This document shows positions 27,657 to 47,564 of a DNA stretch of 64,000 nucleotides, in pieces. The notes beneath the pieces are model-generated. The model worked only from the letters and a program-made list of their open reading frames with translations, was not told the DNA's origin and searched no databases. How positions within the stretch are numbered: position 1 is the first letter of the stretch; every line of letters begins with the position of its first letter. Made by a program: the position numbers and the translations under genes. Source of the stretch: Dictyostelium discoideum (taxonomy: Eukaryota); contig CM000153.2 in assembly GCA_000004695.1 (NCBI GenBank), positions 448,001 to 512,000 on the forward strand, read 5' to 3'.

Positions 27657-27829
27657 TGTTATTGATTGATTTGAAGTAACATGTCAATCATCATTTTCAA
27701 ATGAATTACCATATGAATTACCATATCGATCAAAAAATATAATTTAAATTCAAATGACATTGTTAGTTGTATTGGTGAGGGTTTTAGAAATAGTAATGAA
27801 ATAAGTATGATCATTTGAAATCAGTCAAT

Positions 27830-28090
27830 AACATTTGGTGATGAAGTTAATATATAACCATTAGTTTTTAATAAACCACCTTTTAATTTTGGAATACTAT
27901 TTACACTTGATGGAATTGGTGGATATGTAATTTGAAAATTTATTTGACCAATAATCACAACAACCTATTTGAGCATTTAATTTTCATGAGAGTTGATCTG
28001 AATAATTTGAAAATCTACAGAAATAATATCATTTGGATCAATAAAATTATTATCAATTTTAACAGAAACAAAAATCGGTCACCATTCAAA
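27830..28090 (-). pseudogene. tgr-like receptor gene fragment (matches 39895-40160 of the intact + gene, about 85% identity); pseudogene remnant
   Basis: Reverse complement reads ...GTTTCTGTTAAAATTGATAATAATTTTATTGATCCAAATGATATTATTTC...GGTTGTTGTGATTATTGGTCAAAT...ACATATCCACCAATTCCA...CCAAAATTAAAAGGTGGTTTATTAA..., with indels and in-frame stops relative to the 39311-41776 gene. Confidence 0.7.
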
Positions 28091-29761: not shown

Positions 29762-30106
29762 AATGTGAATTGTTGAAATTGATAATAATAGATTTTGAAA
29801 TATATTTCTCGTGTCAGAGTATTGATGAGAATCATCAGATTGAGTTAAATATTGGAATACTTTTGATACCACTTTTACCATTGGTTGTAACATTGATAAA
29901 TATCATTTCACCATTTTTAATATTATTAAATGTATTAATCATTGTATCATTAATATACTTTAAATATCACTACTATAATTATTACCACTACCACTACCAA
30001 TACTACCAAGTATTATAACTTTATCAATTAGATAATAGAAATCATTACCAATATTGGTTAAAATACCTCCTTGTTTTAAATAAATTATACTAGTTTGATT
30101 AATTGG
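29762..30106 (-). pseudogene. tgr-like receptor gene 3'-end fragment (matches 41383-41776 of the intact + gene, about 90% identity, including the C-terminal hydrophobic tail codons); pseudogene remnant
   Basis: Reverse complement reads ...CAATTAATCAAACTAGTATAATT...AAAACAAGGAGGTATTTTAACCAATATTGGTAATGATTTCTATTATC...GGTGAAATGATATTTATCAATGTTACAACCAATGGTAAAAGTGGTAT...CAAAATCTATTATTATCAATTT.... Its order and orientation relative to the 27830-28090 fragment are scrambled. Confidence 0.75.
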
Positions 30107-31362
30107 CAGTGATTTATAGATTATACAGAATGTTCAATGGAAAAAAAACATATGTTCTTTACTACAAAATTGATGGTTTTTTGTAACATCTGCTGGTCTG
30201 TTACAGAGTGATTCAATGATTTCTTTATACCATGTTGTTATTGAGGTTGAGTTAATTGGTAGAGATAGAGTGGTGAGGAAGGTGGTGTCATATTATCTAA
30301 TTTGTGGTGTAGTTGTTGCAGTTGTTGTCGTTGTTATTGTTTATTGATTAATAGTTGCTATTGTTCATTATTATCGATATTATTATTATTGTTATTATTA
30401 TTATCTTCTGACATTTTATAAACTGAATTATTTAATCTTATTGAATAAAATTTGTTATTGATTTTAAATTTTGTTTTATTACTGAGATTATTTACTATTA
30501 CTATTTAAATTTTTATTATTATTGACTTTATTATTAATTATTGTTAGTATAATAAATGTTTTGAATATTGTAGATGATGTGAATTCCCCCTTTATTAATA
30601 TTTTACAAAAAATAATAATGGTTATAATTAATAAAATTTATAATAGTATTATTTTTTATTATATTTTTTAAGATTTCTTTTATTTTAATAAAATAATAAA
30701 ATATTTAAATTTTTTAATATATTTTATAATTTTTTTTTTTTTCTATTTTTTTAAAGATAATTAAAGTTACATTTTTATAATAAATCTTTTAAAAATTTAA
30801 ACCAGATTAATGCAATTTATAACATTCTTATGTATTATCTTATTATAATAATTAAAAACGTATTTGGTTTTAAAAATTTCATCATTAAAGTGGCCAAAAA
30901 CTTAATAAAATATTAAAATATAATAATTTATCTTTAATTTTAATAAAAGTTGTAAGAGTTTTTTTTTAAATTAACAAATATTATTTAAAAATAAGATAAT
31001 AATTAAAAAAAAAATCTTTAAAAAATATAAAAAAAAAATAGTGTGCTTCTTCATTTATTCATTTTTTTATTTTTTTTATTTATTTTCACACGAAACCCCA
31101 TTAGTATAAATTTTAAATTAAACAGTTTGGATGTTATTGATTAGCAATCATTAGGTTGGATTTTAGACAACAAATCCAAATGCCTTGAAATTGCGATATC
31201 ATCTTGAAAGCCACCATAAAATTATTATTTTAATTAGAATGTGAAACACGGTTAATATTTTTTTTTTTTTTTTTTTATTTTTAAATTTAAAAAAAGAAAT
31301 CCATATTTTTAATTTTTGAATAATTTATAATTTATTTTTATAATTTTTATTCATATTTTATT

Positions 31363-31623
31363 TTTTACATACTTTTTAACACAACCAATAATATATCCTT
31401 TTTAATGATGGTGGTGAAAATCACTATACCATACAAATATATAAAATTCTTTTGAATATAAAAGGGGTCTTTTTTTTTTTTATAATTTTTTAAATTATTT
31501 TTTTTAATTTTTATTTAAATAAATTATGTATTTTTTAACACAACCACTAATATATCCTTTTTAATTGATGGTGGTGAAAATCACTATATAAATTTATATA
31601 TTTTTTTTTTTTGAATATAAAAG

Positions 31624-31640
<17 letters not shown>
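31363..31640 (+). repeat. direct repeat of a roughly 110-bp unit (31363-31480 and 31530-31640): TTTTTAACACAACCA(A/C)TAATATATCCTTTTTAAT(T)GATGGTGGTGAAAATCACTATA...TTTTGAATATAAAAGGG
   Basis: Two near-identical copies about 170 bp apart in non-coding DNA upstream of the kinase gene. Confidence 0.7.
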
Positions 31641-31658
<18 letters not shown>

Positions 31659-32041
31659 TGGTGTTTGCATAGAGGAGATCTAAGATAGTAGGGGTAATTT
31701 TCAATAGTAATTGATAGTGCGCTCAAAATAATAATGACCTGTTTTCTCTTCTCCCTTTTTTTTTTTACTTGTACATTTTTTTTTTTTTATTTGTTTTTTT
31801 TTTAAATTTATTTTTAAATATATTTAATATTAATTTTCTTTTTTTAATTATAATTTTTTAATTATTTTTTTTTTTTAATTATATTTTTTAACTATTATTA
31901 TTTTAATTATTTTTTTTTTTACATTTAATTTTTCTATTTTTAATTATATTTGTAATTATTATTTTTATTATTTTTCTTTTTTTCTATAAATAAAATATTA
32001 AAATTATTAAAATTTTTAAAACCTTTTTTTAAAACAAAGCC

Positions 32042-32244
32042 ATGACATCTCAAAATTGGAAAAATTGTTTTAATAAAAAAGCAATTGAGGTTATTGAAAT
32101 TCATAGATCTCAGGAAACAATCACTGTTGAAACAGTAAATAATGAAGATAAAATCAAGAATAATATTTCAAAACCCAAAATTAAAGTACATAAAAAACCA
32201 ATAATTAAATCAATTTCAAAGTTAAAATTACAACCAAAATTTTC
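32042..32244 (+). CDS. ankyrin-repeat protein kinase (+ paralog), exon 1
   Basis: ATG at 32042; GTAAGT donor at 32245 (phase 2). A 302-nt AT-rich intron containing an (ATT)n run; TATAAAAG acceptor at 32539-32546. Confidence 0.6.
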
Positions 32245-32364
32245 GTAAGTAAAAACATTTTAAATTCTTTTTTTTTTTTTTTTTTTTTCATGAAAAAAAA
32301 CATTTTAAATTCTTTTTTTTTTTAATTTTTTTTTATTTATTTTTTTTTTATTATTATTACTATA

Positions 32365-32397
<33 letters not shown>

Positions 32398-32401
32398 TTT
32401 A

Positions 32402-32439
<38 letters not shown>

Positions 32440-32496
32440 TTATTATTATTTGTATTATTTTTTAATAAAAAAATAATTTAAAAAATTCTAATATTT

Positions 32497-32543
<47 letters not shown>

Positions 32544-32546
32544 AAG

Positions 32547-33684
32547 GAGATACAATGATATTATTGATTATTCAATTGATTTCAATTGTAATAAAAATTA
32601 TTTCTTAAAACAAGATAAAGTTAGTGGTAATACTTTTATTCATGTTTTTTGTGAAAAAAGAGAATCAAAAATAAATTTAGAATCTGATATTGAAAATTTA
32701 AAATGTTTGGGAAAGGAAACGATTGAAGCAAGGAATAATAATAAGGAAATTGCACTATTTTCAACTTTAAAAAACCAATGCCTTGGTTTAAAAATAATGC
32801 ATGAATTAATTTCAAGAAATGTTATGTTCATTGATGATAATGGTAAAGATGAGTTACTAGTAAAATGTTTAGAAGAGGGTAGAGTTGATATGGTGAAATA
32901 TTTAATTACCGTTGATATTAATTTGATCTCAAAATTAAAGAGAATATGCCAAATTACCCAATTAAGCCTAGAAACACTTCAATTTGTCGAATTAATTAAT
33001 TCAGAATATGAAAAAATCGTAGAAATTGGTTTAAAATCTGCAGGTAGAGAATACATTAAATTGTTTTTCATTCAATTTATTTTGGGTAATTTTTCAAAAG
33101 AATCAATCATCCAAACAATTGATGAATATAAATTACCACCAATTCCAAAAGAAATTGAAGATTTTTTCTTTGTTTATAATTATCAAATGTGTGACTTTGT
33201 TAAATTAACTGAAATCAAACCACGTTACCTCAATGAAATTTCTAAAATAAATATCTATCCAATTGGTCAAGTCTCCATTGAAAGAAGAAATGAACTCGGT
33301 CGTGGTGGTAATGGTACCGTTTATTCAGGTGTATTAAAAGAGATTGATAGTCAAGGTAATGAAATTTCAATACCAGTTGCAATCAAAATACCAACTCAAT
33401 TCTATAAATCAAAATTGGTTGAAGTATATAAAGAGTTGGCTATTCATCAAAAGATTAATGGTATTTGTGGTCCAAAGTTATTTGGATGCGTAAAGTTAAA
33501 TGTTGGATTTGGTATTATAATTGAAAGATTTGATTGTAGTTTACATGACTATATTCAAAATAATAATATCGATTTCGATTTATTTTTTGAATTGGCTCTT
33601 AAAATGGTTATAACAATTAGAAATCTACACAAATGTCATTTAAATGAAATATTCCATCGTGATATTAAACCACACAACTGGTTA
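32547..33684 (+). CDS. ankyrin-repeat protein kinase (+ paralog), exon 2: ankyrin-like repeats plus kinase subdomains I-VIb
   Basis: Ankyrin-like DDNGKDELLVKCLEEGRVDMVKYLI; glycine loop GRGGNGTVYSG; VAIK; HRDIKPHNWL; GTATGT donor at 33685. The ORF-track M at 32707 is a TTG codon, not a real start. Confidence 0.8.
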
Positions 33685-33772
33685 GTATGTATATTATTTT
33701 AATACTTTTTCATTTTTCATTTTAATATTATAATTTAATTTAACTCTTTGTATTTTTATTTATTTATTTTAG

Positions 33773-34423
33773 GTTAAAAAAACTAAAGATGAATTGGTGG
33801 TCGTTTTATCTGATTTTGGTTTATCAAGAGAGAATAGTGAAACAAATGAAAATACTCTTCAGAAATATAGAGGAACATCAGTATTTATTCCACCAGAATT
33901 AAATGATAATATCTTATATAATGAAAAATCAGATATATACTCTTTGGGTGTATCATTTATGATGTTGCTTTATAAAGTTGTTTATGGCAAAATGGAAAAC
34001 CCATTTTATGAATTCAAAATTTCAAAAATGGAATACTTCAAAACAGTTGTTGCTTTAGAGAACTTTTTAGTACCAATTGTACCAACATTTTTACCTGATT
34101 CTTTTAAAGAGTTCTTGTTCTCAACAATGAATAGAATCTATACATGTCGTCCAAATTCTGAAGAATGTGTAGAAAGACTCATAACACTAAAGACTGAATA
34201 TGAAAATGATAAAACCAAATGGCAAGTAAATAGTGCTATTATACAAAAAGAAAAATCATTACTCACTGATTCAATAATTTCACAACAATTGAAATTAATG
34301 AACCAAGTTAAAAAATTTGTTCAAGAAAATGATAAATTCGTTTTTTTGAAGAAAACAAAATTATTTTTTTCAGAATCTGAAATTAAACAATATCTTTTGT
34401 CAATAATAAAATGTCAAGAATGA
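33773..34423 (+). CDS. ankyrin-repeat protein kinase (+ paralog), exon 3: kinase subdomains VII-XI
   Basis: TTTTAG acceptor at 33767-33772. VVVLSDFGLSRE (DFG), GTSVFIPPE (APE-like). Stop at 34421-34423. Confidence 0.8.
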   Translation, partial: VKKTKDELVVVLSDFGLSRENSETNENTLQKYRGTSVFIPPELNDNILYNEKSDIYSLGVSFMMLLYKVVYGKMENPFYEFKISKMEYFKTVVALENFLVPIVPTFLPDSFKEFLFSTMNRIYTCRPNSEECVERLITLKTEYENDKTKWQVNSAIIQKEKSLLTDSIISQQLKLMNQVKKFVQENDKFVFLKKTKLFFSESEIKQYLLSIIKCQE

Positions 34424-34864
34424 AAACTTTAAATAAAATTTTTTAAAAAATAAAGAAAAGAATTAATAATTAGATTATTATTGTTTTAATTTTTTTATTT
34501 TTTTTTTTTTTTTTATAATTAACTGTTATCAAATTCTGGTTTTTCAAAATAAAATAATTCTTTCTTTTTATACAATTGCTTTTAATTCATCTATAAATCT
34601 AATTTGTGATCTAGTTGATTCTAGTTTTAAATAGCTAAATTGGTAATCTAAGAAAGTTGATTCTTTATTTTTTTTTATTTTTTTATTGAACACCAAAGTT
34701 ATATCTTTTTTTTATTTTTTGAGTTTTATCTTTTAACTTTTTTTATTTTTTGAATTTCTTTTTTTTGTAATATTTTATATTGGAATGCTAATAATTATGA
34801 ATTACTTCTTTAAAATATTTTAAAGAAGAGCAATATTTTATTTTATTATTATTATTATATTAAT

Positions 34865-35650
34865 TATTTTTTTTATTATTTGATGAGCAAGCCACATCAT
34901 TGTTATTATTATTACTAATATTATTATTATTGGTTTTATTATTATTTGATGAGCAAGCTACATCATTGTTTTTATTATTACTAATTATTATTATTGATTT
35001 TATTATTATTATTTGATGAGCAAGCAACATCACCGATAGTATTATTGTTGTTATTATTACTACTATTAATATTATTGGTTTTATTATTATTAATTGATGA
35101 ACGAGCTAAATCATTATTGGTTTTATTATTATTTGATGAGCAAGCTACATCATTTTTATTATTATTACTAATATTATTATTATTATTGATTTTATTATTA
35201 TTTGATGAGCAAGCTACATCTTTGTTATTATTATTACTAATATTATTATTATTGATTTTATTATTATTTGACGAGCAAGCTACATCATTGTTTTTATTAT
35301 TACTAATATTATTATTATTGATTTTATTATTATTTGATGAGCAAGCAACATCATTGTTATTATTATTACTAATATTATTATTATTGGTTTTATTATTAAT
35401 TGATGAGCAAGCTACATTATTGTTATTATTATTACTAATATTATTATTATTATAATTGGTTTTATTATTATTTGATGAGCAAGCTACATCATTGTTATTA
35501 TTATTACTAATATTATTATTATTGATTTTATTATTTGATGAAAAAGCAACATCGCCGATAGTATTATTGTTGTTATTATTACTATTAATGATAGTGTTAC
35601 TGTTACTATCACTACTATTATTAATTGATGAACAAGCTAAATCATTGTTG
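34865..35650. repeat. tandem array of about 12 copies of a 66-72-bp unit (TTATTATT...TGATGAGCAAGCTACATCATTGTTATTATTATTACTAATATTATTATTATTGATT); 34984-35650 encodes the cytoplasmic tail repeats, 34865-34980 lies 3' of the stop codon
   Basis: The motif TGATGAGCAAGC (or 1-2-nt variants) recurs at 34881, 34947, 35017, 35097, 35133, 35199, 35269, 35337, 35401, 35473, 35537 and 35627. On the minus strand it encodes (DVACSSNNNK.NNNNISNNNNN)n. Confidence 0.85.
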
Positions 35651-38291
35651 TTATTATTTTTATTTTTGGAATTTCTATTTCTAAGGTTATTATTTTTTGG
35701 AATTCTTAATGGATCTTCAGCCATTATAATATTGTCATACATATCCAAAAAAATCATTCTTTGATTATTATAAACTTCCCTCGTTTGTAAATATTCATCT
35801 CCTTTTGTAGAATGATTGTTTTCTACATTTTCAATTATTCTTTCCCTTTTAATTGACATAAAGAAACGTTCTGGTATTTTAAAGAAAATAATTAAAAAAA
35901 TAAATAATAGTGGTGCAAAAATTATTGTAACTAATGATATTACAATTTTTTTCCAATCTACTCGAGAACTTTCTTCTTGAGATTTGGTGTTATTGTTGAT
36001 ATATATATATTCTTTTTCTGAAATATTTTGGAATATTAAATTATACCTAGAGATATGAACTATTTGATTTGAAGTGACATTAATTTCAAATGTTGAGTTT
36101 ATTCTAGGTAAAAAGAAATTTAGCAATATATCATTTGCAATTGCACAACCTATTTCTGTTGAAAAACTATATGATATTGTGCATCTTTTCTGGCCATCAA
36201 TTATGAGACTTGTTTTTAGTGGATAAAAATTGAAACCGGATAGAGCTAATACCCAATGGTCCTTTTGATAATTGCTTATTGTGCCAACTTTATTTATTGT
36301 TGGTCCATTAAATGTTATATTAAAACTAATTGATTGATCCATTGAATTAATAATGCATTGTTCAACATGAGGACAAAAGTAATCTTCACTTTGACATGTG
36401 GAATCACATGAAAAAGAAGAATGATTTAAATATGTACAACCAAATTTATAATTACCACATTCAAGAGAAACATTTTGTTTTGAATGAAAATTTTCTCCAT
36501 CTATAAACACTATACTACCATTATTATCAAATGGTTTTGAAATTGCACCCTTAATGGTAGGTTTAATGGTTAATTCATATGGATCAGAAATAATACCACA
36601 ACAACAGATTGTAATTAGGTCACTTGTAAAATATGGTTCCTTTTTGGTTGTAATTTCATTGGAACTTATTTTTATTGGAGAAAGTGATTGGTTCGAGAAT
36701 GTAATAAATGTATTATTATAAAAGCCATAATTGTTAAATTCACCAGTACAGATTATGAATTCATCCTTTGTGTAACATGATTCTATAATTGGTTTTTTAT
36801 AATTAAATGTTGATTGGTATGATTTATTTTCAAAATTTATATTGTAACCTTTTTTACCACAACCTGGCACAATGAAAAACGAATAATCTAAATCATTTGA
36901 ATTTTTACCAATGAGTGTTCCCGTTGATTTAAATTCATCACCAAAATCTGAATAGATTGATAGTATCGGATTTTCTTTATTTTCATCATAACTTGAATTA
37001 AAAAATTTAACAATGCAATTTGATCCATTTACCATTGGTTGAGTAACAAACTTAGTTATGAATGATAAGCCAATAAAATAACTGTTTGATTGTTTTTCAT
37101 AAGATTTCACCGATATATTAATATAGGACATTGCTTCTGGAATGGTGAATGACATAACAGTCTCATTATCATTAATTTGAAGGTTTTGTAAACTAATTGG
37201 GATTTTATCATTAAATATAGTTACTGATCCTACTTCACCAAGACATTGGCCATATATTGTCAAGACACCATTGGAAATACTATAAGATGAAATAAGCGTT
37301 GAGTCATAGTTGAAATATATTTTGTTTTGGTTGGTAATACCATCTATGTTTACGGTAACTGGTAAGTTGTTATCTAAAATTCTATGAGCCATATAACAAG
37401 TAATATTATTTGGTGAAAGTGTAATAATTGAACATGGGTAATCTCCTATTTTAACCTCTGCTATAATAATTGAAGAATTCGATGTTAATCTTTCTCCATT
37501 GATATTAATTGTAGCATTTTTGTTTCTTGGAATACTATTAATTGAATTTAATACTGGAGGATATACTAAATCCATTTTATTTGAAGGTACTTTACTTGCA
37601 ATTAATTGAATTGTAAATGAAGTACAAAAGAATTCTGAATATTCAAAAATAAATTCAATATATTCATGATCATTTTTAATAATTTGTTCATTTTTAATTT
37701 TTTGATTGTTGATTAAAATTTCTTTTGGATACATTTCAGTACAGAAATTAGAGCCAATTAGTGTCACAGTTTTTTTATTTATTTCTACTTTTTCTATATA
37801 TGGATTTTGGTATGATGAATTATAAACAAACGAAAGACCAAAAATTTTAAAAAATCCACAACCACTTGGAAAAATCATTAAATATTCAGAACCGTTTTTT
37901 CCATTTGGAGATATCAAAAAATCGATTTTTTCATAATCATTTTGGAAAAGAGCGTTCTGATTTGTTGTTAATAAAAAATATGTAATATTGGATTGAAAAC
38001 TACCTCCTTTAGTTTCTGGTTTTAATTCTGGTTCAAAAATTGGTAAGATATTTGAAAAAATCCCTGGAAACTGTATACCATCTGCTGTTTTTTTTTCAGT
38101 TTGTTCACTTCCGAAAGCATGAAATTTAAAATTGTTATCAGTAGTTAAATTACACATCCTTAAATCACCATCAATATTACAATTGTAGTTGTATTCAAAA
38201 ATATCTACATTTTTTTCTTTGAATATATATTTGGAAATGTAAGATTCATTTACTTGATAAAAAAGTGTAATATATTCTTTATCTATTATAT
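34981..38291 (-). CDS. tgr-like IPT/TIG-repeat transmembrane receptor (- paralog), exon 2: ectodomain, TM and repeat-rich cytoplasmic tail
   Basis: Paralogous to the 39136-41776 gene (ELKPETKGGSFQSNITYFLL versus EFKPKTRGGNTTLSGYYLEL; NPYIEKVEINKKTVTLIGSNF versus EPNIEKIDINQSFLDITGTNF). TM segment IVISLVTIIFAPLLFIFLIIFF, then a tail of about 330 aa built of roughly 24-aa repeats. TTTTTTTTACAG acceptor at 38292-38293 (minus). Confidence 0.85.
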
Positions 38292-38355
38292 CTGTAAAAA
38301 AAATTTAAAATTAATATTTTACTTTTAATATTGATTAATCTAATTAATTACATAC

Positions 38356-38413
38356 TCTCAAGAATTGAATATACTATTGTTATTAATAAAATTATTAACA
38401 AATAATATTTCAT
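38356..38413 (-). CDS. tgr-like receptor (- paralog), exon 1: signal peptide MKYYLLIILLITIVYSILE
   Basis: ATG at 38411-38413 (minus), GTATGT donor at 38350-38355 (minus), phase 1. Same intron phase and position as exon 1 of the + paralog. Confidence 0.65.
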
Positions 38414-38765
38414 TCTTGAATGTTTATCAAATTGTTTAATTAAGTATTGGGTTAATTATTTGCTACTTTTTTATTATTTTTTTGATTTTATTTTATTATT
38501 ATTTTTTTTTGTTTTTTAAAAATTAATACTTTTTTTATTTTATTTAATTTTTTTTTTTTTGTAAATTTAAAAATTAATGGTTTTATGATAATTTTAGATT
38601 AAAAAAATAATAATTATTATAATTTAATTCTTTTTCTTTGTGATTTAACCACAATTTTTTTTTAAAATCATCATTGGGTTGTTATTTTTTTTAATAATAA
38701 TAATTATTTTTATTTTCAAACCCATTTTTATATTTCACTTTTTTTGAATTTTTTTATTTTTAGAA

Positions 38766-38830
38766 AGGGGTACCTATATTTGGACTCATTGAGGGGTTTG
38801 AAATTGATTTACCCCATCCCACACACACTT
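38766..38830. promoter_or_regulatory. G-box / CA-element-like palindromic element in the shared divergent promoter: GGGGTACC...GAGGGGTTTGAAATTGATTTACCCCATCCCACACACAC
   Basis: GGGGT/ACCCC inverted arms followed by CCCACACACAC, the best non-AT motif in the 722-bp region between the two receptor ATGs (38413 and 39136). It resembles GBF-binding G-box/CAE sites of post-aggregative Dictyostelium promoters. Confidence 0.35.
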
Positions 38831-38961
38831 TTCTTTTTTTAATTTTGATTAAAAAAAATATAACTTTTTTAATTTTTAAAAAAAATTATATTATTATTAT
38901 TTTTTTTTTTTTTTATTTTTTTTATTTTTTTTTTTTTTTATATTTATTCTTATAATTATTA

Positions 38962-39075
<114 letters not shown>

Positions 39076-39135
39076 ATTACTATTATTTTTCTCAACAATT
39101 TTATAATTCTTTAAATTAGAAATCAATTATTTTAA

Positions 39136-39211
39136 ATGAAAATAATTTTAATTTCTTTACTTTTTTATTTATTTTCATTTGCTATTTCTTATGATGATGT
39201 CATTCCTTTGG
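39136..39211 (+). CDS. tgr-like IPT/TIG-repeat receptor (+ paralog), exon 1: signal peptide MKIILISLLFYLFSFAISYDDVIPLG
   Basis: ATG at 39136; GTAAAT donor at 39212 (phase 1); 73-nt intron; TTTTTTTAG acceptor at 39276-39284. Confidence 0.7.
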
Positions 39212-39284
39212 GTAAATTGTTTTTATCATTTTTTTCATATCTCTTTTTTTTAATTTATTAATTATTTATTAATTATTTTTTTAG

Positions 39285-41776
39285 GTTATGAAAGTCACAA
39301 TGATTCTCTTGTGATTAGATATCGTGAAAGAGAAAATTATTATACAAATATTTCATTTTTATGGAATGGTAAAAGTCGTTATGATATGAGTTTTAATTGT
39401 GTTTTAAATAATACAATTAGAACTTGTACTTTACCAGTGAAAGAATCTGATCATGCCCAAATGTATTCAGAGAAAATATCTGCATGTACAGAAAATAATG
39501 GTACTTTTAAAAGGTGTGGTTATGATGTTGAGTTATTTTATTTTCCAAGTCCATTTTTAATTTCAGAGTTTAAACCAAAAACACGAGGTGGAAATACAAC
39601 ATTAAGTGGTTATTATTTAGAGTTAAAAGAAAGAATTTATGTTCCATTTGAAAGTCACTATAAAGATGATCAGTTTTATTATGCTGTAGAAGTATATACA
39701 ATTCCAGGTAAGTTTCAATCAAAAACACCAGATAGAATAAATTTAGTTTTAAAAGTTTTTCCAGGTTGTGGATACAGAACAATTATTTGGGAGAATCGTG
39801 AAAGATTAAATTTTACATATCAAGAGCCAAACATTGAAAAAATTGATATTAATCAATCATTTCTTGATATAACTGGTACAAATTTCTACAATCAATCAAT
39901 TTTGGTTTCTGTTAAAATTGATAATAATATTATTGATCCAAATGATATTATTTCAGTTGATTTTGAAATTATTAAATTAAAATTTAATTATTCAGATCCA
40001 TTCTCATCAAAATTGAATGTTCAAGTCGGTTGTTGTGATTATTGGTCAAATCAATTTCAAATTACATATCCACCAATTCCAATAAGTTCAAATAGTATTC
40101 CAAAATTAAAAGGTGGTTTATTAATAATCAATGGTAATAGATTAACTTCATCACCATCATTATCTAATAATATTAATATTTCAGTAACAGTTGGTGATTC
40201 AATTTGTTCAATTGTTTCGTCATCTTCAAATGAAATTAAATGTAATTTACAACCAATATCAAATTCAACATTTAATAATTCATCACCAATTGCTGTATCA
40301 ATAAATGGGGTTGTAAATACAAATACATTATTATTAAATTATGATATTCCATATATTACAACATTCTCTCAAGTAAATGATGAAATTCATATAATTGGTG
40401 GTTGTTTTGGTAATATTAATTCAACTCAAATTCATATCAATGATAAACAAGTTTCTGGCCAAATTAAATCAATTAATAATGATGAAACAATTTTAATATT
40501 AAAAATACAAAATCAAATTTATAATTTCAATCTTTCAATCGAATCAAATTCAATCAAATCAAATGGAATCAATGTAGATGTAAAATTGTATGCAAGTATA
40601 AATGAAATTCCATTGGTTGCTAATAAATTAATTAATTTTACATTATTTTATGTAAATTCAAGTAATATTAATTTAATACCAACAATTAAAATAATTAATG
40701 AAAAATCAAATCAAACAAGTAAATCAATTTCAACCAATGTAAATGAAAGTGTTGTATCATGTTCATTTTTAATTGAAAATAATTGTGGTATTATTAATTA
40801 TGAAATTGAAATTGGTAATCAAATATATCAATCATCATTTTCATATGAATCACCATTGATTAATAAATGTAATTTAAATTCAAATGAAATTGTTACTTGT
40901 ATTTGTAAAGGTTTTGTAAATAAATATAATGAAACAAGTATTTTTATTTCAAATCAATCAATAGCCCTTAGTAAAGAAATTAATAATAGTAGTTATGAAT
41001 CAATATCATTTCAAATGAAAGATGAGTATAATATTCTTGGTGAATTGTATTTAAATGTATGTGGTTTATTATCAAATAAAGTAATTATTAATACATTTCC
41101 AATTTTTAAAAATGTATCGATTCCTAACTTGTTTGGTACAAATGGTGGTAATATCATTATTATTGGTAAATATTTAAATAATAATACAAATATTACAATT
41201 GAATGTAATGGTGAACAAATTATTATAGAAAAAGAATGTAAATTAAAAAATAGTAGTACATCATTAGAATGCAACATTAATTTAAATGGTCCAAATGATA
41301 AAACTTGTAAATTATTATTTAATAATGATAATAGTATAGTATCAACATTTAATTTAATATACAAATCACCATCAATTAATCAAACCAGTATAATTAATTT
41401 AAAACAAGGAGGTATTTTAACAATTATTGGTAATGATTTCTATTATCCAATTGATAAAGTTACAATAATTGGTAATGGTAATGGTAGTGGTAATAGTAGT
41501 AGTTTAAATTGTAATGAAGCAAAGTATATTAATGATACAATTATAACATGTTTTATTCAAGCAACTAATTATACATTTAATAATATTAAAAATGGTGAAA
41601 TGATATTTATCAATGTTTCAACCAATGGTAAAAGTGGTATATCAAAAGTATTCAAATATTTAACTCAATCTGATGATATCCATCAATACTCTGATGCTAG
41701 AAATATCTTTCAAAATCTATTATTATCAATTTTAATCATATTAATCATTTCATTATTATTCATTTCAAATCTTTAA
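39285..41776 (+). CDS. tgr-like IPT/TIG-repeat receptor (+ paralog), exon 2; C-terminal hydrophobic tail (GPI-signal-like or zero-tail TM)
   Basis: 830 codons; repeated IPT-like blocks (NIEKIDINQSFLDITGTNFYNQSILVSVKID..., PKLKGGLLIINGNRLTSSPSLSNNINISV...); ends NLLLSILIILIISLLFISNL-stop. The ORF-track M at 39311 is a GTG codon. Confidence 0.85.
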
Positions 41777-41845
41777 AAAAAAACCATAAATTAATAAATA
41801 AATACATTAATAGTTTAAAAATTTTTTTTTTTTTTATTTATAATT

Positions 41846-41881
<36 letters not shown>

Positions 41882-43930: not shown

Positions 43931-44584
43931 TTATCTATCTTCATTAAAAGATTTGCATTTAATGAAATAACTTGAATAATCAAAACTTTCCAATTCTTGG
44001 ACATAATTATCGTGAGGATTTTGATTTAAATCAAAGTCTCGAATGTAATCCAACACATCAGATTTTATATAGTGATATTGATTTATCATTTGTTCATTGA
44101 GTAACGAGTAATCTTCATGTACTGATATTTCAGTATCCCATTTGGTTCTATCTGATTCATATTCCTCTTTACATTTTTGGATTTCTTCAATGCACTCTTT
44201 AATTGATGGTCTTCTTTCAGGCATTTTGCTCATCATTAAAAATAGCAATCTTTTTAATCGTGATGGTAAGTTGGGAGGGATAGTTGGAATTAAACCAGTA
44301 TTCTGAATAATGTTCAGGTTTTCGGGTTCATCTGCAATTTGGTATTCATGGTAAGGATGGACAAACTTGCCATATACGAGTTTGTAGGCCAATTGATACA
44401 AAGAAATACCAACAGAAAAGATATCAGATTGAGAAGAAAATAAAAATCCTTTATAGCACTCTGGTGCAATGTGTAGATTAGTTCCTCTTATTTGCTGTAA
44501 TGTACAACCGTTAGATTCAGTGTTCGATCTTGATAATCCAAAATCAGAAATAAATACTGTATGGTTTCCATCTATTGTCTTTAT
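43931..44584 (-). CDS. ankyrin-repeat protein kinase (- paralog), exon 3: kinase subdomains VII-XI
   Basis: TTTTATAG acceptor at 44585-44592 (minus). IKTIDGNHTVFISDFGLSRSN..., GTNLHIAPE. Stop at 43931-43933. Confidence 0.8.
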   Translation of the reverse strand: MKTIDGNHTVFISDFGLSRSNTESNGCTLQQIRGTNLHIAPECYKGFLFSSQSDIFSVGISLYQLAYKLVYGKFVHPYHEYQIADEPENLNIIQNTGLIPTIPPNLPSRLKRLLFLMMSKMPERRPSIKECIEEIQKCKEEYESDRTKWDTEISVHEDYSLLNEQMINQYHYIKSDVLDYIRDFDLNQNPHDNYVQELESFDYSSYFIKCKSFNEDR

Positions 44585-44698
44585 CTATAAAATCATATTT
44601 TAAAAATTAACAAACAAATAAATAAATAAAAAAAGAATTAATATCACAAATAAATAATATTGAAAAAAAAAAAAAAAAAAAAAAAATTTTTAACATAC

Positions 44699-45797
44699 CA
44701 ACCAATTTTCTAATTTAATATCTCTATGATATACATTTATTTCTGCTTCTGGATAGTGGTTATGAACCTGAGAAACAGAATTTACCATCTGTGTCGATAA
44801 AATGAAGAAAAGATCTAAATTAATTTGGTTACAGGATATGAAGTTTTTTAAATCCATATCGCATTTTTCGATGATAATAGAGAGTCCAAATTTTAATTTT
44901 GAAACACCAATTAATTTCAAAATATTTTCACCTTGCAATGATTGATGAACTGATACTTCTTTATAAATACGTTCAAAACTATCGTCATCATAATTTTTGA
45001 ATGATTTTATTGCGACTGGCGTTATAGTATTTTGAAGATTGATATATGTGGCTTTATGAACCGTACTGAAACCACCTTCACCAATAATTGAAAAATCTGA
45101 TAGTTGACTTTTATCAATTATTCCAACCTTTTCAATGGATTCTATTTCATTTTTTTTTAAATTGTATTTTGTTTTATAATCATCCATTTTGAATATGAAT
45201 TTGTTGACTGCTTTTTCAATTTCAGTAGGAACTGGTGCATTGGCAACTTTAAATAATAACTTTAATTTTTCTTGACTATAAATTAATTCTGTTAATAAAG
45301 CAATATTTGTTTTAATTAATTTACCATTAACACTATCTGGAATAGTACTAAAGTATGCCATCGAAAAATAAATATCATCAAAAATATCTTGAATATCTTG
45401 ATCAGTATTTTTACAATTTTGGCATATTTCAAAATGATCAAATCCAAAAGAAATTAATAGTTTTAATATCGGTATGTTTTTAAGATTTATGCACTTGCAT
45501 AGAATTGAGTGACCATGTTTATTTGTTTTCTTTGCCATCTCTATATTAATTAAACCATTACAAACCATTTCACACACCAACTGAAGTCCATTCACTTTAT
45601 TTTCAATGGCATAATAAAGAGAACTATTTTCATTTTCATCACTACATGATATTACTCCAATTTTAGAAAACTCACATAGGAATTGCTTAACATCTGGACC
45701 AGAATAAGTCAAGCAGAAATGGTGAAAGATTTTATAACAATCATTTATAGAATCTGTAAATAATTCTGGGAATTGGTTGTGAATTATTTGTATGTTT
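44699..45797 (-). CDS. ankyrin-repeat protein kinase (- paralog), exon 2
   Basis: Glycine loop GEGGFSTVHKATY; VAIKSF; HRDIKLENWL; GTATGT donor at 44693-44698 (minus), the same position as in the + paralog. The frame stays open upstream of the TTG the ORF track used as a start, with no in-frame ATG, so an upstream exon is required. Proposed acceptor TTACAG at 45798-45799 (minus), phase 2. Confidence 0.8.
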
Positions 45798-45893
45798 CTG
45801 TAATCTTGAAAAAGGTCTACGTGAATATTTCTTTTTTTTAAAATTTTTTTTTTTTTTGGAAAATATTTAATGAATAAATAATAAAATTAACAA

Positions 45894-45896
<3 letters not shown>

Positions 45897-45958
<62 letters not shown>
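45897..45958. repeat. 62-nt homopolymer (poly-A on +, poly-T on the gene strand) inside the proposed kinase intron 1
   Basis: A perfect run of A at 45897-45958. Confidence 0.9.
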
Positions 45959-45961
<3 letters not shown>

Positions 45962-45963
45962 AC

Positions 45964-47564
<1,601 letters not shown>

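What the first reader, a model, noticed from the sequence alone, without database searches (positions are those of the whole stretch)
34981..41776. Head-to-head pair of paralogous signal-peptide / IPT-TIG-like receptor genes sharing a 722-bp promoter: a tgrB1/tgrC1-type candidate allorecognition locus
What the sequence shows: two large genes (1122 aa on the minus strand, 855 aa on the plus strand) are transcribed divergently from ATGs at 38413 and 39136. Both have the same two-exon layout. Exon 1 is a 19-25-aa signal peptide and ends in phase 1. A short 64-73-nt intron follows at the identical position. Their ectodomains are clearly paralogous (KP.T.GG, NIEK..IN....L.G.NF, Y.C.I and several collinear blocks).

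The two differ at the C-terminus. The minus gene has a TM helix and a cytoplasmic tail of about 330 aa. The plus gene ends directly in a hydrophobic GPI-signal-like segment.

Established knowledge: the Dictyostelium tgrB1/tgrC1 (lagB/lagC) genes are adjacent and divergently transcribed from a shared promoter. They encode IPT/TIG-repeat membrane proteins, one with a signalling tail. They are extremely polymorphic and mediate kin recognition.

Inference: this is such a receptor-ligand pair or a close family member.
Basis: partly seen in the sequence, partly recalled or inferred. Interest (0 to 1): 0.85.

Follow-up and report, generated by a model that had tools for sequence, protein, structure and literature searches.

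The report
Known Dictyostelium tgr gene pair
The two divergently transcribed genes are real, but both are already annotated in the Dictyostelium discoideum reference genome as members of the "Tiger" (tgr) surface-protein family. They are relatives of the kin-recognition genes tgrB1/tgrC1, not those genes themselves.

Summary
These are letter-for-letter identical to D. discoideum AX4 RefSeq proteins XP_639150.1 (Q54R97) and XP_639151.1 (Q54R96). The two proteins are paralogs, 27% identical over 842 aa (E 1e-56).

The plus protein has Pfam Ig_TgrO1 and IPT/TIG domains and is 92% identical to Swiss-Prot Tiger protein I3. The minus protein models as a string of beta-sandwich domains that resemble plexin and MET ectodomains.

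The locus is therefore a tgr-family head-to-head pair, a layout already published as typical of this family. It is not the tgrB1/tgrC1 locus, which lies on chromosome 3. It belongs to the TgrA/H/I/O group, whose function is unknown and whose expression is reported as low.

Counterparts in wild strains differ by 7-15% in protein sequence. Gene-wide dN/dS is 0.4-0.56, which does not show diversifying selection.

Minor new points:
- The pair is flanked by mirror-image paralogous kinase genes.
- A 76-nt promoter core is conserved among duplicated copies.
- The tailed partner decays more often than the plus-type gene.

Verdict: already known, low interest.

The parts
34981..38291 (-). Exon 2 of the minus gene (XP_639150.1/Q54R97, 1122 aa). 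It encodes the ectodomain, the TM segment and the cytoplasmic tail, and includes the stop codon.
   Evidence: ORF listing. The spliced model translates to 1122 aa and matches XP_639150.1 exactly.
38292..38355 (-). Intron of the minus gene, 64 nt, GTATGT...ACAG, phase 1.
   Evidence: Sequence reading and splice reconstruction.
38356..38413 (-). Exon 1 of the minus gene. It encodes a 19-aa hydrophobic signal sequence plus 1 nt.
35881..35949 (-). Predicted transmembrane helix of the minus protein (residues about 801-823). About 299 aa of cytoplasmic tail follow.
   Evidence: Kyte-Doolittle scan, maximum 3.04. The AlphaFold2 model has a helix at 799-822.
34843..35553 (-). Tandem repeat of 66 nt, 10.9 copies. 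It encodes the 22-aa Asn-rich repeat (...NNNNISNNNNNDVACSSNNNK...) of the cytoplasmic tail and runs past the stop codon into the 3' flank.
   Evidence: Tandem Repeats Finder, score 763, and the translation. The wild-strain counterpart is about 120 aa shorter.
38414..39135 (.). Shared 722-bp intergenic region between the two start codons, presumed to be a bidirectional promoter.
38757..38832 (.). Conserved promoter core, the only G+C-containing island in the intergenic region. It carries a GBF-type CA/GT run at 38819-38827.
   Evidence: It is 97% identical over 68 nt in the tgrI3 promoter and 90-91% in wild-strain copies. The surrounding intergenic DNA is 78% identical. Heptamer scan.
38885..39087 (.). 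(ATT)n microsatellite of about 69 copies. It ends 49 nt upstream of the plus-gene ATG.
   Evidence: Tandem Repeats Finder.
39136..39211 (+). Exon 1 of the plus gene. It encodes a 25-aa signal sequence plus 1 nt.
   Evidence: The AX2-214 automatic annotation uses a different first exon without a signal peptide.
39212..39284 (+). Intron of the plus gene, 73 nt, GTAAAT...TTAG, phase 1.
39285..41776 (+). Exon 2 of the plus gene (XP_639151.1/Q54R96, 855 aa), a member of the TgrI subfamily.
   Evidence: Exact identity to P0036. 92% identical to Tiger protein I3.
39560..39820 (+). Ig_TgrO1 domain (PF24612) of the plus protein, residues 118-204. It overlaps the most variable stretch of the gene.
   Evidence: Pfam, 92.9 bits against a cut-off of 27.9. 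Sliding-window pN is 0.13-0.15 at residues about 114-175.
40082..40327 (+). IPT/TIG domain (PF01833) of the plus protein, residues 292-373.
   Evidence: Pfam, 25.6 bits against a cut-off of 20.9.
41714..41773 (+). C-terminal hydrophobic segment of the plus protein (residues about 836-855). It is GPI-signal-like, with no cytoplasmic residues after it.
   Evidence: Hydropathy maximum 2.86. The ending HQYS[DA]ARNIFQNL.LSILII.IISLLF is conserved in TgrI-like proteins of four species.
32042..34423 (+). Context: flanking protein kinase gene A, convergent with the minus gene.
   Evidence: Called as a 663-aa Pkinase gene in the AX2-214 annotation. ORFs.
43931..47564 (-). Context: flanking protein kinase gene B (1128 aa), convergent with the plus gene and a paralog of kinase A.
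   Evidence: BLASTP of A against B gives 24% identity, E 8e-34, with an intron at the same place after HRDIK..NWLV.

Best explanation
The region holds two intact genes of the Dictyostelium discoideum Tiger (tgr) family, both already annotated in the reference genome, on the 5.45-Mb chromosome record.

- The plus gene is a TgrI-subfamily member (XP_639151.1).
- The minus gene is its divergently transcribed, distantly paralogous partner with a TM helix and a long tail (XP_639150.1). It is probably what dictyBase calls a tgrH-type gene, but I could not verify that name.

What is shown: both genes encode secreted-pathway, heavily N-glycosylatable proteins whose ectodomains are strings of IPT/TIG-type Ig-like domains. 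One is anchored by a TM helix followed by a roughly 299-aa tail that is mostly an Asn-rich repeat. The other is anchored by a C-terminal hydrophobic, GPI-signal-like end.

What is inferred, by analogy with TgrB1 (receptor) and TgrC1 (ligand):
- The two are co-transcribed from the 722-bp shared promoter, through its conserved 76-nt core, during development.
- Both are displayed on the cell surface.
- They bind each other in trans between neighbouring cells. The tail-less plus protein acts as ligand and the tailed minus protein relays the signal.

I put the identity at 0.95 or higher and the inferred ligand-receptor mechanism at about 0.35.
For: Identity and family:
- The spliced products match the AX4 proteins exactly.
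- The window is identical apart from six homopolymer-length indels to AX2-214 contig CM142510.1, where a 1122-aa and an 837-aa gene are called at the same place.
- The plus protein has Pfam Ig_TgrO1 and TIG domains and is 92% identical to Tiger protein I3.
- Minus and plus are paralogous at E 1e-56.
- Close relatives of the minus protein carry recorded PF01833 hits.
- The AlphaFold2 model of the minus ectodomain is all-beta with pLDDT 70-90 over residues about 180-600. Its top Foldseek matches include plexin A1/A4 ectodomains, plexin IPT3-IPT6 and MET.
- A profile search finds 1436 relatives.

Evidence that the genes are functional:
- Both frames are intact.
- dN/dS is 0.40-0.56, below 1.
- The order kinase A, then minus gene, then plus gene is kept in D. 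citrinum, with the juxtamembrane tail region alignable to residue 878.
- The promoter core is conserved above its background.
- The C-terminal anchor signal is conserved in four species.

Literature:
- Head-to-head pairing is typical of tgr genes.
- TgrB1 and TgrC1 act as receptor and ligand, and TgrB1 has a cytoplasmic domain.
Against: - No expression or splicing data could be examined here.
- The literature reports low expression of tgrA/H/I/O genes during clonal development and calls their function unknown.
- The partnership is not obligatory. Across seven loci I counted about 16 plus-type copies but only 4 full-length minus-type copies.
- The paralogous tgrI3 gene sits next to a broken partner whose longest ORF is 194 aa.
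- Most of the 'signalling tail' is a low-complexity Asn-rich repeat, of a kind common in Dictyostelium proteins.
- The minus protein itself has no Pfam hit above threshold.
- The single GBF-type site is not statistically remarkable. The window has 44 such heptamers against 31 +/- 5 expected.
Confidence: 0.6

Rival explanations
1. The pair is a redundant product of birth-and-death evolution in the tgr family. It is intact in the lab strain, but weakly expressed or not expressed, and on its way to pseudogenisation with no current role.
For: - Published description: 26 of 64 AX4 tgr loci are pseudogenes, the A/H/I/O genes duplicate about as fast as transposons, and they are lowly expressed.
- Decayed copies lie next door, at window 27741-28078 and 29807-30133.
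- The tgrI3 locus and the wild-strain loci hold broken partners.
- dN/dS of 0.4-0.56 is high for a constrained gene.
Against: - Frames of 1122 and 855 codons with correct splice sites remain open in 20% G+C DNA.
- dN/dS is clearly below 1.
- The arrangement and the anchor signals are conserved in D. citrinum.
- The promoter core is conserved above background.
Confidence: 0.3
2. The two proteins work independently of each other, for example as homophilic adhesins or as receptors for something other than the neighbour gene's product. The head-to-head layout would then be only a relic of an ancient inverted duplication of a tgr-plus-kinase unit.
For: - The locus is a mirror image: kinase> <tgr | tgr> <kinase. 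The tgr pair and the kinase pair are about equally diverged, at 27% and 24% identity.
- Plus-type genes often occur in tandem with no partner (L004, L005, L007).
Against: - The divergent pairing is retained in D. discoideum, D. cf. discoideum and D. citrinum.
- It has been copied as a unit, together with the promoter core.
- The best-studied pair with this layout, tgrB1/tgrC1, is a ligand-receptor pair.
Confidence: 0.25
3. This is the tgrB1/tgrC1 allorecognition locus itself, or a direct duplicate of it.
For: Only the shared architecture: a divergent pair of IPT/TIG proteins, one of them tailed.
Against: - The proteins are XP_639150.1 and XP_639151.1 on the 5.45-Mb record.
- The nearest named relative is TgrI3, at 92%.
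- The tgrBC locus is on chromosome 3, flanked by wacA, chdB and DDB_G0280717.
- The published tree separates the A/H/I/O clade from B/E/J and C/D/K.
Confidence: 0.02

Closest known systems
Tiger protein I3 (TgrI3, UniProt Q54RE1) and its locus, about 116 kb away on the same chromosome
   Same: - The plus protein is 92% identical, with the same length class, the same Pfam domains and the same C-terminal anchor signal.
- The locus is a segmental copy, 93.5% identical in DNA over window 36472-38353 and 38978-41866. Its promoter core is 97% identical.
   Different: - At the tgrI3 locus the divergent partner is truncated and broken. Its longest ORF is 194 aa and it is called as a 449-aa gene.
- The kinase gene and the 3' half of the partner are deleted there.
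- In the window both genes are intact.
tgrB1/tgrC1 allorecognition (greenbeard) pair of D. discoideum
   Same: - Same family of signal-peptide, IPT/TIG-repeat, membrane-anchored glycoproteins.
- Divergent transcription from one short shared promoter.
- The two partners are only distantly similar to each other.
- One partner has a cytoplasmic domain.
- The receptor-type partner decays more often than the ligand-type partner. Published for tgrB against tgrC and seen here for minus-type against plus-type copies.
   Different: - Different chromosome and different clade: A/H/I/O rather than B/E/J and C/D/K.
- TgrC1 is described as a transmembrane protein, whereas the plus protein here ends in a GPI-like signal.
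- The tail here is much longer and mostly an Asn-rich repeat.
- No evidence of binding, of strong developmental expression or of dN/dS above 1.
Other head-to-head tgr pairs (for example tgrD1/tgrE1) described in bioRxiv 10.1101/2025.10.22.684067
   Same: 'Many tgr genes are paired', the genes within a pair are weakly similar, and pairs are duplicated into clusters with non-tgr genes in between. That is exactly what is seen here.
   Different: tgrD1 and tgrE1 have reported knock-out phenotypes, with arrest at the mound stage (PMC3188802). No phenotype is reported for this pair.
Plexin and MET ectodomains (metazoan IPT/TIG arrays)
   Same: Fold-level resemblance of the modelled minus ectodomain to chains of IPT/Ig-like domains.
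   Different: - Sequence identity is about 10%.
- TM-scores are low, because multi-domain strings do not superpose.
- There is no sema or PSI domain and no kinase or GAP domain in the tail.

Membership tests
[quoted passage not shown] | Significant sequence similarity to named Tgr proteins | tested here: met
   - The plus protein is 92% identical to Swiss-Prot Tiger protein I3.
- The minus protein aligns with the plus protein over 842 aa at E 1e-56.
- The minus protein hits D. firmibasis 'TgrO1-like immunoglobulin-like domain' proteins at E 5e-55.
[quoted passage not shown] | IPT/TIG or Ig E-set repeat ectodomain, plus protein | tested here: met
   PF24612 Ig_TgrO1 at 92.9 bits (cut-off 27.9) and PF01833 TIG at 25.6 bits (cut-off 20.9).
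[quoted passage not shown] | IPT/TIG or Ig E-set repeat ectodomain, minus protein | tested here: met
   - There is no Pfam hit above threshold; the best is TIG_SUH at E 0.034.
- The AlphaFold2 model is all-beta (pLDDT 70-90 over about 180-600) and matches plexin IPT arrays and MET.
- Close relatives carry PF01833 hits.
- The protein is collinear with the plus protein.
[quoted passage not shown] | N-terminal signal sequence and C-terminal membrane anchor | tested here: met
   Hydropathy shows N-terminal hydrophobic segments in both proteins, an internal TM at 801-823 in the minus protein, and a terminal hydrophobic run at 836-855 in the plus protein. No dedicated signal-peptide predictor was available.
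tgrB1/tgrC1 allorecognition pair | Location in the tgrBC locus on AX4 chromosome 3, between wacA, chdB and DDB_G0280717 | tested here: not met
   - Exact matches XP_639150.1 and XP_639151.1 lie on the 5,450,249-bp AX4 record, and at 5.05 Mb of a 5.58-Mb AX2-214 contig.
- The neighbours are two kinase genes and a BBE/FAD oxidase gene.
- The position of the tgrBC locus is taken from PMC12745789.
tgrB1/tgrC1 allorecognition pair | Membership of the TgrB/E/J and TgrC/D/K clades | tested here: not met
   The nearest named relative is TgrI3, and the published tree places TgrI in the separate A/H/I/O group. I could not obtain TgrB1 or TgrC1 sequences to build my own tree.
tgrB1/tgrC1 allorecognition pair | [quoted passage not shown] | tested here: met
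   The ATGs are at 38413 (minus) and 39136 (plus), with 722 bp between them.
tgrB1/tgrC1 allorecognition pair | Extreme polymorphism among wild strains under diversifying selection | tested here: inconclusive
   - The best counterparts in wild D. discoideum are only 85-91% identical in protein, with dS 0.10-0.16. One paper quotes about 0.3% nucleotide divergence between closely related strains.
- Orthology is uncertain because copies turn over.
- Gene-wide dN/dS is 0.40-0.56, and only a few 60-codon windows reach about 1.
tgrB1/tgrC1 allorecognition pair | Joint strong expression at about 9 h of development | not testable with these tools
   No transcript data were available. [quoted passage not shown]
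tgrB1/tgrC1 allorecognition pair | Allotype-specific heterophilic binding that controls sorting | not testable with these tools
   This needs binding and mixing experiments.
GPI-anchored surface protein (plus protein only) | N-terminal signal, C-terminal hydrophobic run with no cytoplasmic residues, and small residues at a plausible omega site 6-10 residues upstream | tested here: met
   - The sequence ends ...HQYSDA-RNIFQN-LLLSILIILIISLLFISNL.
- The same ending is found in TgrI-like proteins of D. discoideum, D. cf. discoideum, D. citrinum and D. firmibasis.
- This was judged by inspection. No GPI predictor was available.
GPI-anchored surface protein (plus protein only) | Release by PI-PLC, or direct detection of the anchor | not testable with these tools
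   This is an experimental test.

The most novel reading that the evidence does not exclude
The TgrI-type/tailed-partner pair, together with its two mirror-image flanking kinase genes, could be a second recognition or adhesion module that works independently of tgrB1/tgrC1. The GPI-anchored plus protein would be the ligand, the tailed minus protein the receptor, and a dedicated neighbouring kinase would act on the tail. It might operate in a setting where it has not been assayed, such as chimeric development, the sexual (macrocyst) cycle or contact with other species.
Probability: 0.1. Interest if true: 0.55.

Novelty: already known. Interest (0 to 1): 0.15.

Why it matters
As it stands it matters little. 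Both genes, their exact exon structures, their family and the head-to-head habit of that family are already in public databases and recent papers.

The residual value is as a pointer. The TgrA/H/I/O branch is large and fast-evolving, and its function is unstudied. This locus is one of the few places where both partners are intact in the lab strain.

It also comes with a conserved promoter core and two linked paralogous kinases that could be tested. If the pair proved to be a working ligand-receptor system, self-recognition in social amoebae would rest on more than one locus.

Tried and rejected
1. The word-indexed protein search with the minus ectodomain missed the exact AX4 entry. That protein is filed in a 90% cluster under a 236-aa low-complexity representative. 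An exact look-up solved this.

2. A profile search with a 10-sequence alignment returned no named TgrB1 or TgrC1. The exhaustive HMMER search found 1436 relatives but carries no names. Naming ten full-length hits gave only 'hypothetical' or 'IPT/TIG domain' labels. I therefore could not build my own tree against TgrB1/TgrC1, and I rely on the published phylogeny.

3. An exact-product look-up of P0036 and P0015 found no contig on record. The AX2-214 product P0001 worked instead.

4. Literature searches for tgrH/tgrI gene names, UniProt ids or RefSeq ids found nothing relevant. A PMC id I guessed from memory for Benabentos 2009 was wrong. No supplementary tables of the PNAS paper are held. The dictyBase names of the two genes therefore remain unverified.

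5. The idea that the kinase flanks are a universal partner of tgrH/I pairs is rejected as a rule. The tgrI3 locus and its wild-strain counterpart have an alcohol dehydrogenase gene instead.

6. A GBF-site reading of the promoter is kept only as a weak inference. The motif count in the window (44) is barely above the shuffled expectation of 31 +/- 5.

7. A fuzzy-regex promoter search timed out and was replaced by blastn.

8. There are no tRNA genes in the window.

Full report
**1. What is in the sequence**

The window is about 20% G+C throughout. The mechanical ORF list shows a 1058-codon frame on the minus strand (34981..38157) and an 821-codon frame on the plus strand (39311..41776).

This gave the following models.
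- Minus gene: exon 1 at 38356-38413, intron at 38292-38355 (64 nt, GTATGT...ACAG), exon 2 at 34981-38291. Product 1122 aa.
- Plus gene: exon 1 at 39136-39211, intron at 39212-39284 (73 nt, GTAAAT...TTAG), exon 2 at 39285-41776. Product 855 aa.
- Both introns are phase 1 and sit directly after the hydrophobic leader.
- The two start codons are 722 bp apart.

**2. Paralogy and topology**

BLASTP of the two products gives 27% identity over 842 aligned positions, E 1e-56. The alignment is collinear from just behind the leader to the membrane anchor.

A hydropathy scan shows the following.
- Each protein has a hydrophobic N-terminus.
- The minus protein has a single internal TM at about 801-823, followed by about 299 residues.
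- The plus protein has a terminal hydrophobic run at about 836-855 with nothing after it.
- There are 33 N-glycosylation sequons in the plus protein and 39 in the minus protein.

The plus-type ending HQYS[D/A]ARNIFQNL.LSILII.IISLLF is conserved in relatives from four species, and these always terminate there. With small residues (S-D-A) upstream, this fits a GPI-attachment signal. No predictor or experiment was available to settle that.

Most of the minus tail is a 22-aa Asn-rich repeat, encoded by a 66-nt tandem repeat of 10.9 copies at 34843-35553.

**3. Identity**

The 1122-aa product is an exact match to XP_639150.1 / EAL65802.1 / UniProt Q54R97. The 855-aa product is an exact match to XP_639151.1 / EAL65808.1 / Q54R96. 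Both are 'IPT/TIG domain-containing protein [Dictyostelium discoideum AX4]' on a 5,450,249-bp record.

The first homology search missed the minus protein only because it is clustered under a 236-aa low-complexity representative.

The window matches contig CM142510.1 of assembly GCA_054883475.1 with no mismatches and six homopolymer-length indels, none of them inside the pair. That annotation independently calls a 1122-aa gene for the minus strand. For the plus strand it calls an 837-aa gene that differs only in its first exon and lacks a signal peptide. The 5' exon of the plus gene is therefore the least secure part of the models.

**4. Family**

The evidence that this is a tgr-family pair is as follows.
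- The plus protein has Pfam Ig_TgrO1 (92.9 bits) and IPT/TIG (25.6 bits), both above their cut-offs.
- Its nearest named relative is Swiss-Prot Tiger protein I3, 92% identical.
- The minus protein has no Pfam hit above threshold. Close relatives of it do carry PF01833 hits.
- An AlphaFold2 model of the minus protein is all-beta, with pLDDT 70-90 over residues about 180-600.
- The best Foldseek matches for that model include plexin A1/A4 ectodomains, plexin IPT3-IPT6 and MET, alongside generic Ig-domain strings such as titin and DSCAM. TM-scores are low, as expected for flexible multi-domain chains.
- A profile built from both proteins and relatives finds 1436 proteins at E <= 1e-3 among 1.84 billion representatives.

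**5. What the literature already says**

[quoted passage not shown] - TgrA/H/I/O form a numerous group that inserts at new genomic sites. Its function is 'unknown' and its expression during clonal development is relatively low (PMC12745789).
[quoted passage not shown] The genes of a pair are often weakly similar, and pairs are duplicated into clusters with non-tgr genes in between (bioRxiv 10.1101/2025.10.22.684067).
- The tgrB1/tgrC1 locus is on chromosome 3, between wacA, chdB and DDB_G0280717.

**6. Comparison with other copies**

| Locus | Source | What is there |
|---|---|---|
| L002 | tgrI3 locus, about 116 kb away on the same chromosome | A segmental copy, 93.5% identical in DNA over window 36472-38353 and 38978-41866. 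The partner is broken (longest ORF 194 aa). The kinase gene and the partner's 3' half are deleted. |
| L003 | Wild D. discoideum strain, syntenic by the left-hand kinase | A minus-type gene (87% protein identity, about 120 aa shorter). A plus-type gene (90%) follows, then two further plus-type copies (one broken, one cut by the locus end) and one broken minus-type copy. |
| L004 | Second wild strain, counterpart of the tgrI3 locus | Three tandem plus-type genes and no partner. |
| L005 | D. cf. discoideum | One minus-type gene (70%) and three plus-type genes (83%). |
| L007 | D. citrinum | The order kinase A, then minus-type (50-58%), then plus-type (72%) is kept, followed by two more plus-type genes. 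|
| L006 | D. firmibasis | Only a stub of the partner remains. |

Two patterns follow.
- The pairing is old and is copied as a unit.
- The tailed partner evolves faster and is lost more often. The same pattern is reported for tgrB relative to tgrC.

**7. Selection**

Nei-Gojobori estimates against these copies give dS of 0.07-0.16 and dN/dS of 0.40-0.56 for the plus gene. For the minus gene dN/dS is 0.49, or 0.43 for the ectodomain alone.

A sliding window over nine plus-type copies shows the highest non-synonymous divergence (pN 0.13-0.15) at residues about 114-175, inside the Ig_TgrO1 domain. A few windows have pN/pS near 1.

The divergence is far above the roughly 0.3% quoted between closely related strains. 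However, orthology is uncertain in a family with this much turnover, and nothing here demonstrates omega above 1. The polymorphism criterion is therefore inconclusive.

**8. Promoter**

The intergenic region is almost pure A+T, with an (ATT)69 microsatellite at 38885-39087. The exception is a core at 38757-38832.

This 76-nt core is 97% identical in the tgrI3 promoter and 90-91% identical in wild-strain copies. The rest of the intergenic DNA is 78% identical.

[quoted passage not shown] GBF is needed for lagC/tgrC1 expression. One such site is not statistically notable, since the window has 44 against 31 +/- 5 expected. GBF control is therefore only a suggestion.

**9. Surroundings**

The pair is bracketed by two convergent protein-kinase genes, at 32042-34423 (+) and 43931-47564 (-). 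They are paralogs, 24% identical at E 8e-34, with an intron at the same place after HRDIK..NWLV.

The locus is thus a mirror image: kinase> <tgr | tgr> <kinase. Both gene pairs are about equally diverged, which suggests an old inverted duplication of a two-gene unit. The kinase association is not universal, because it is absent at the tgrI3 locus.

Decayed plus-type fragments lie at 27741-28078 and 29807-30133.

**10. Verdict**

The family and architecture are right. The allorecognition role is not shown, and the locus is not tgrB1/tgrC1.
- The most likely function, by analogy, is a co-expressed surface ligand (plus, GPI-like) and receptor (minus, tailed) pair for cell-cell contact. I rate that at about 0.35.
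- The main alternatives are a redundant, decaying duplicate (0.3) or two independently acting adhesins (0.25).
- Novelty: already known. Interest: low.

Noticed in passing
window 32042-34423 (+) and 43931-47564 (-): The two genes flanking the tgr pair are paralogous protein kinases, 24% identical at E 8e-34, with an intron at the same position after HRDIK..NWLV. Each is convergent with its tgr neighbour. The four genes therefore form a mirror-image unit that looks like an old inverted duplication. The order kinase A, minus gene, plus gene is kept in D. citrinum (L007).
   Followed up: partly
window 27741-28078 and 29807-30133, minus strand: There are short tblastn matches to the plus protein here, 45-75% identical over 24-121 aa. 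They look like relics of a decayed TgrI-type gene upstream of kinase A.
   Followed up: no
L002 6820-12723 compared with window 31017-31882 and 36472-41866: The tgrI3 locus is a segmental duplicate of this locus, 91-93.5% identical in DNA. An internal deletion has removed the kinase gene and the 3' half of the tailed partner.
   Followed up: partly
window 38757-38832: This 76-nt promoter core is conserved at 90-97% among duplicated tgrH/I-type intergenic regions, against 78% for the surrounding AT-rich DNA. It carries a GBF-type CACACAC run at 38819-38827. It was not detected in the D. citrinum or D. firmibasis loci at the threshold used.
   Followed up: partly
window 38885-39087: An (ATT)n microsatellite of about 69 units ends 49 nt upstream of the plus-gene start codon. 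It is identical in length in the AX2-214 assembly.
   Followed up: no
window 34843-35553, minus strand: A 66-nt tandem repeat of 10.9 copies encodes a 22-aa Asn-rich repeat with a DVACSS core in the cytoplasmic tail, and it continues past the stop codon. The counterpart in a wild strain (L003) is about 120 aa shorter, so the copy number varies.
   Followed up: partly
L001 10001-12580 (= window about 39190-41776): The automatic annotation of AX2-214 gives the plus gene a different first exon (MSFLWVNC...) with no signal peptide, and a product of 837 aa. The AX4 model has 855 aa and a signal peptide.
   Followed up: yes
window 39547-39730 (plus protein residues about 114-175): This is the most variable stretch among nine plus-type copies, with pN 0.13-0.15, roughly three times the gene average, and pN/pS about 0.83. 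It lies in the Ig_TgrO1 domain.
   Followed up: partly
window 31626, 32501, 42819, 42978, 45897, 50672: The only differences between the window and the AX2-214 assembly over 22.6 kb are six homopolymer-length indels of 2-21 nt. All of them lie outside the tgr pair.
   Followed up: yes
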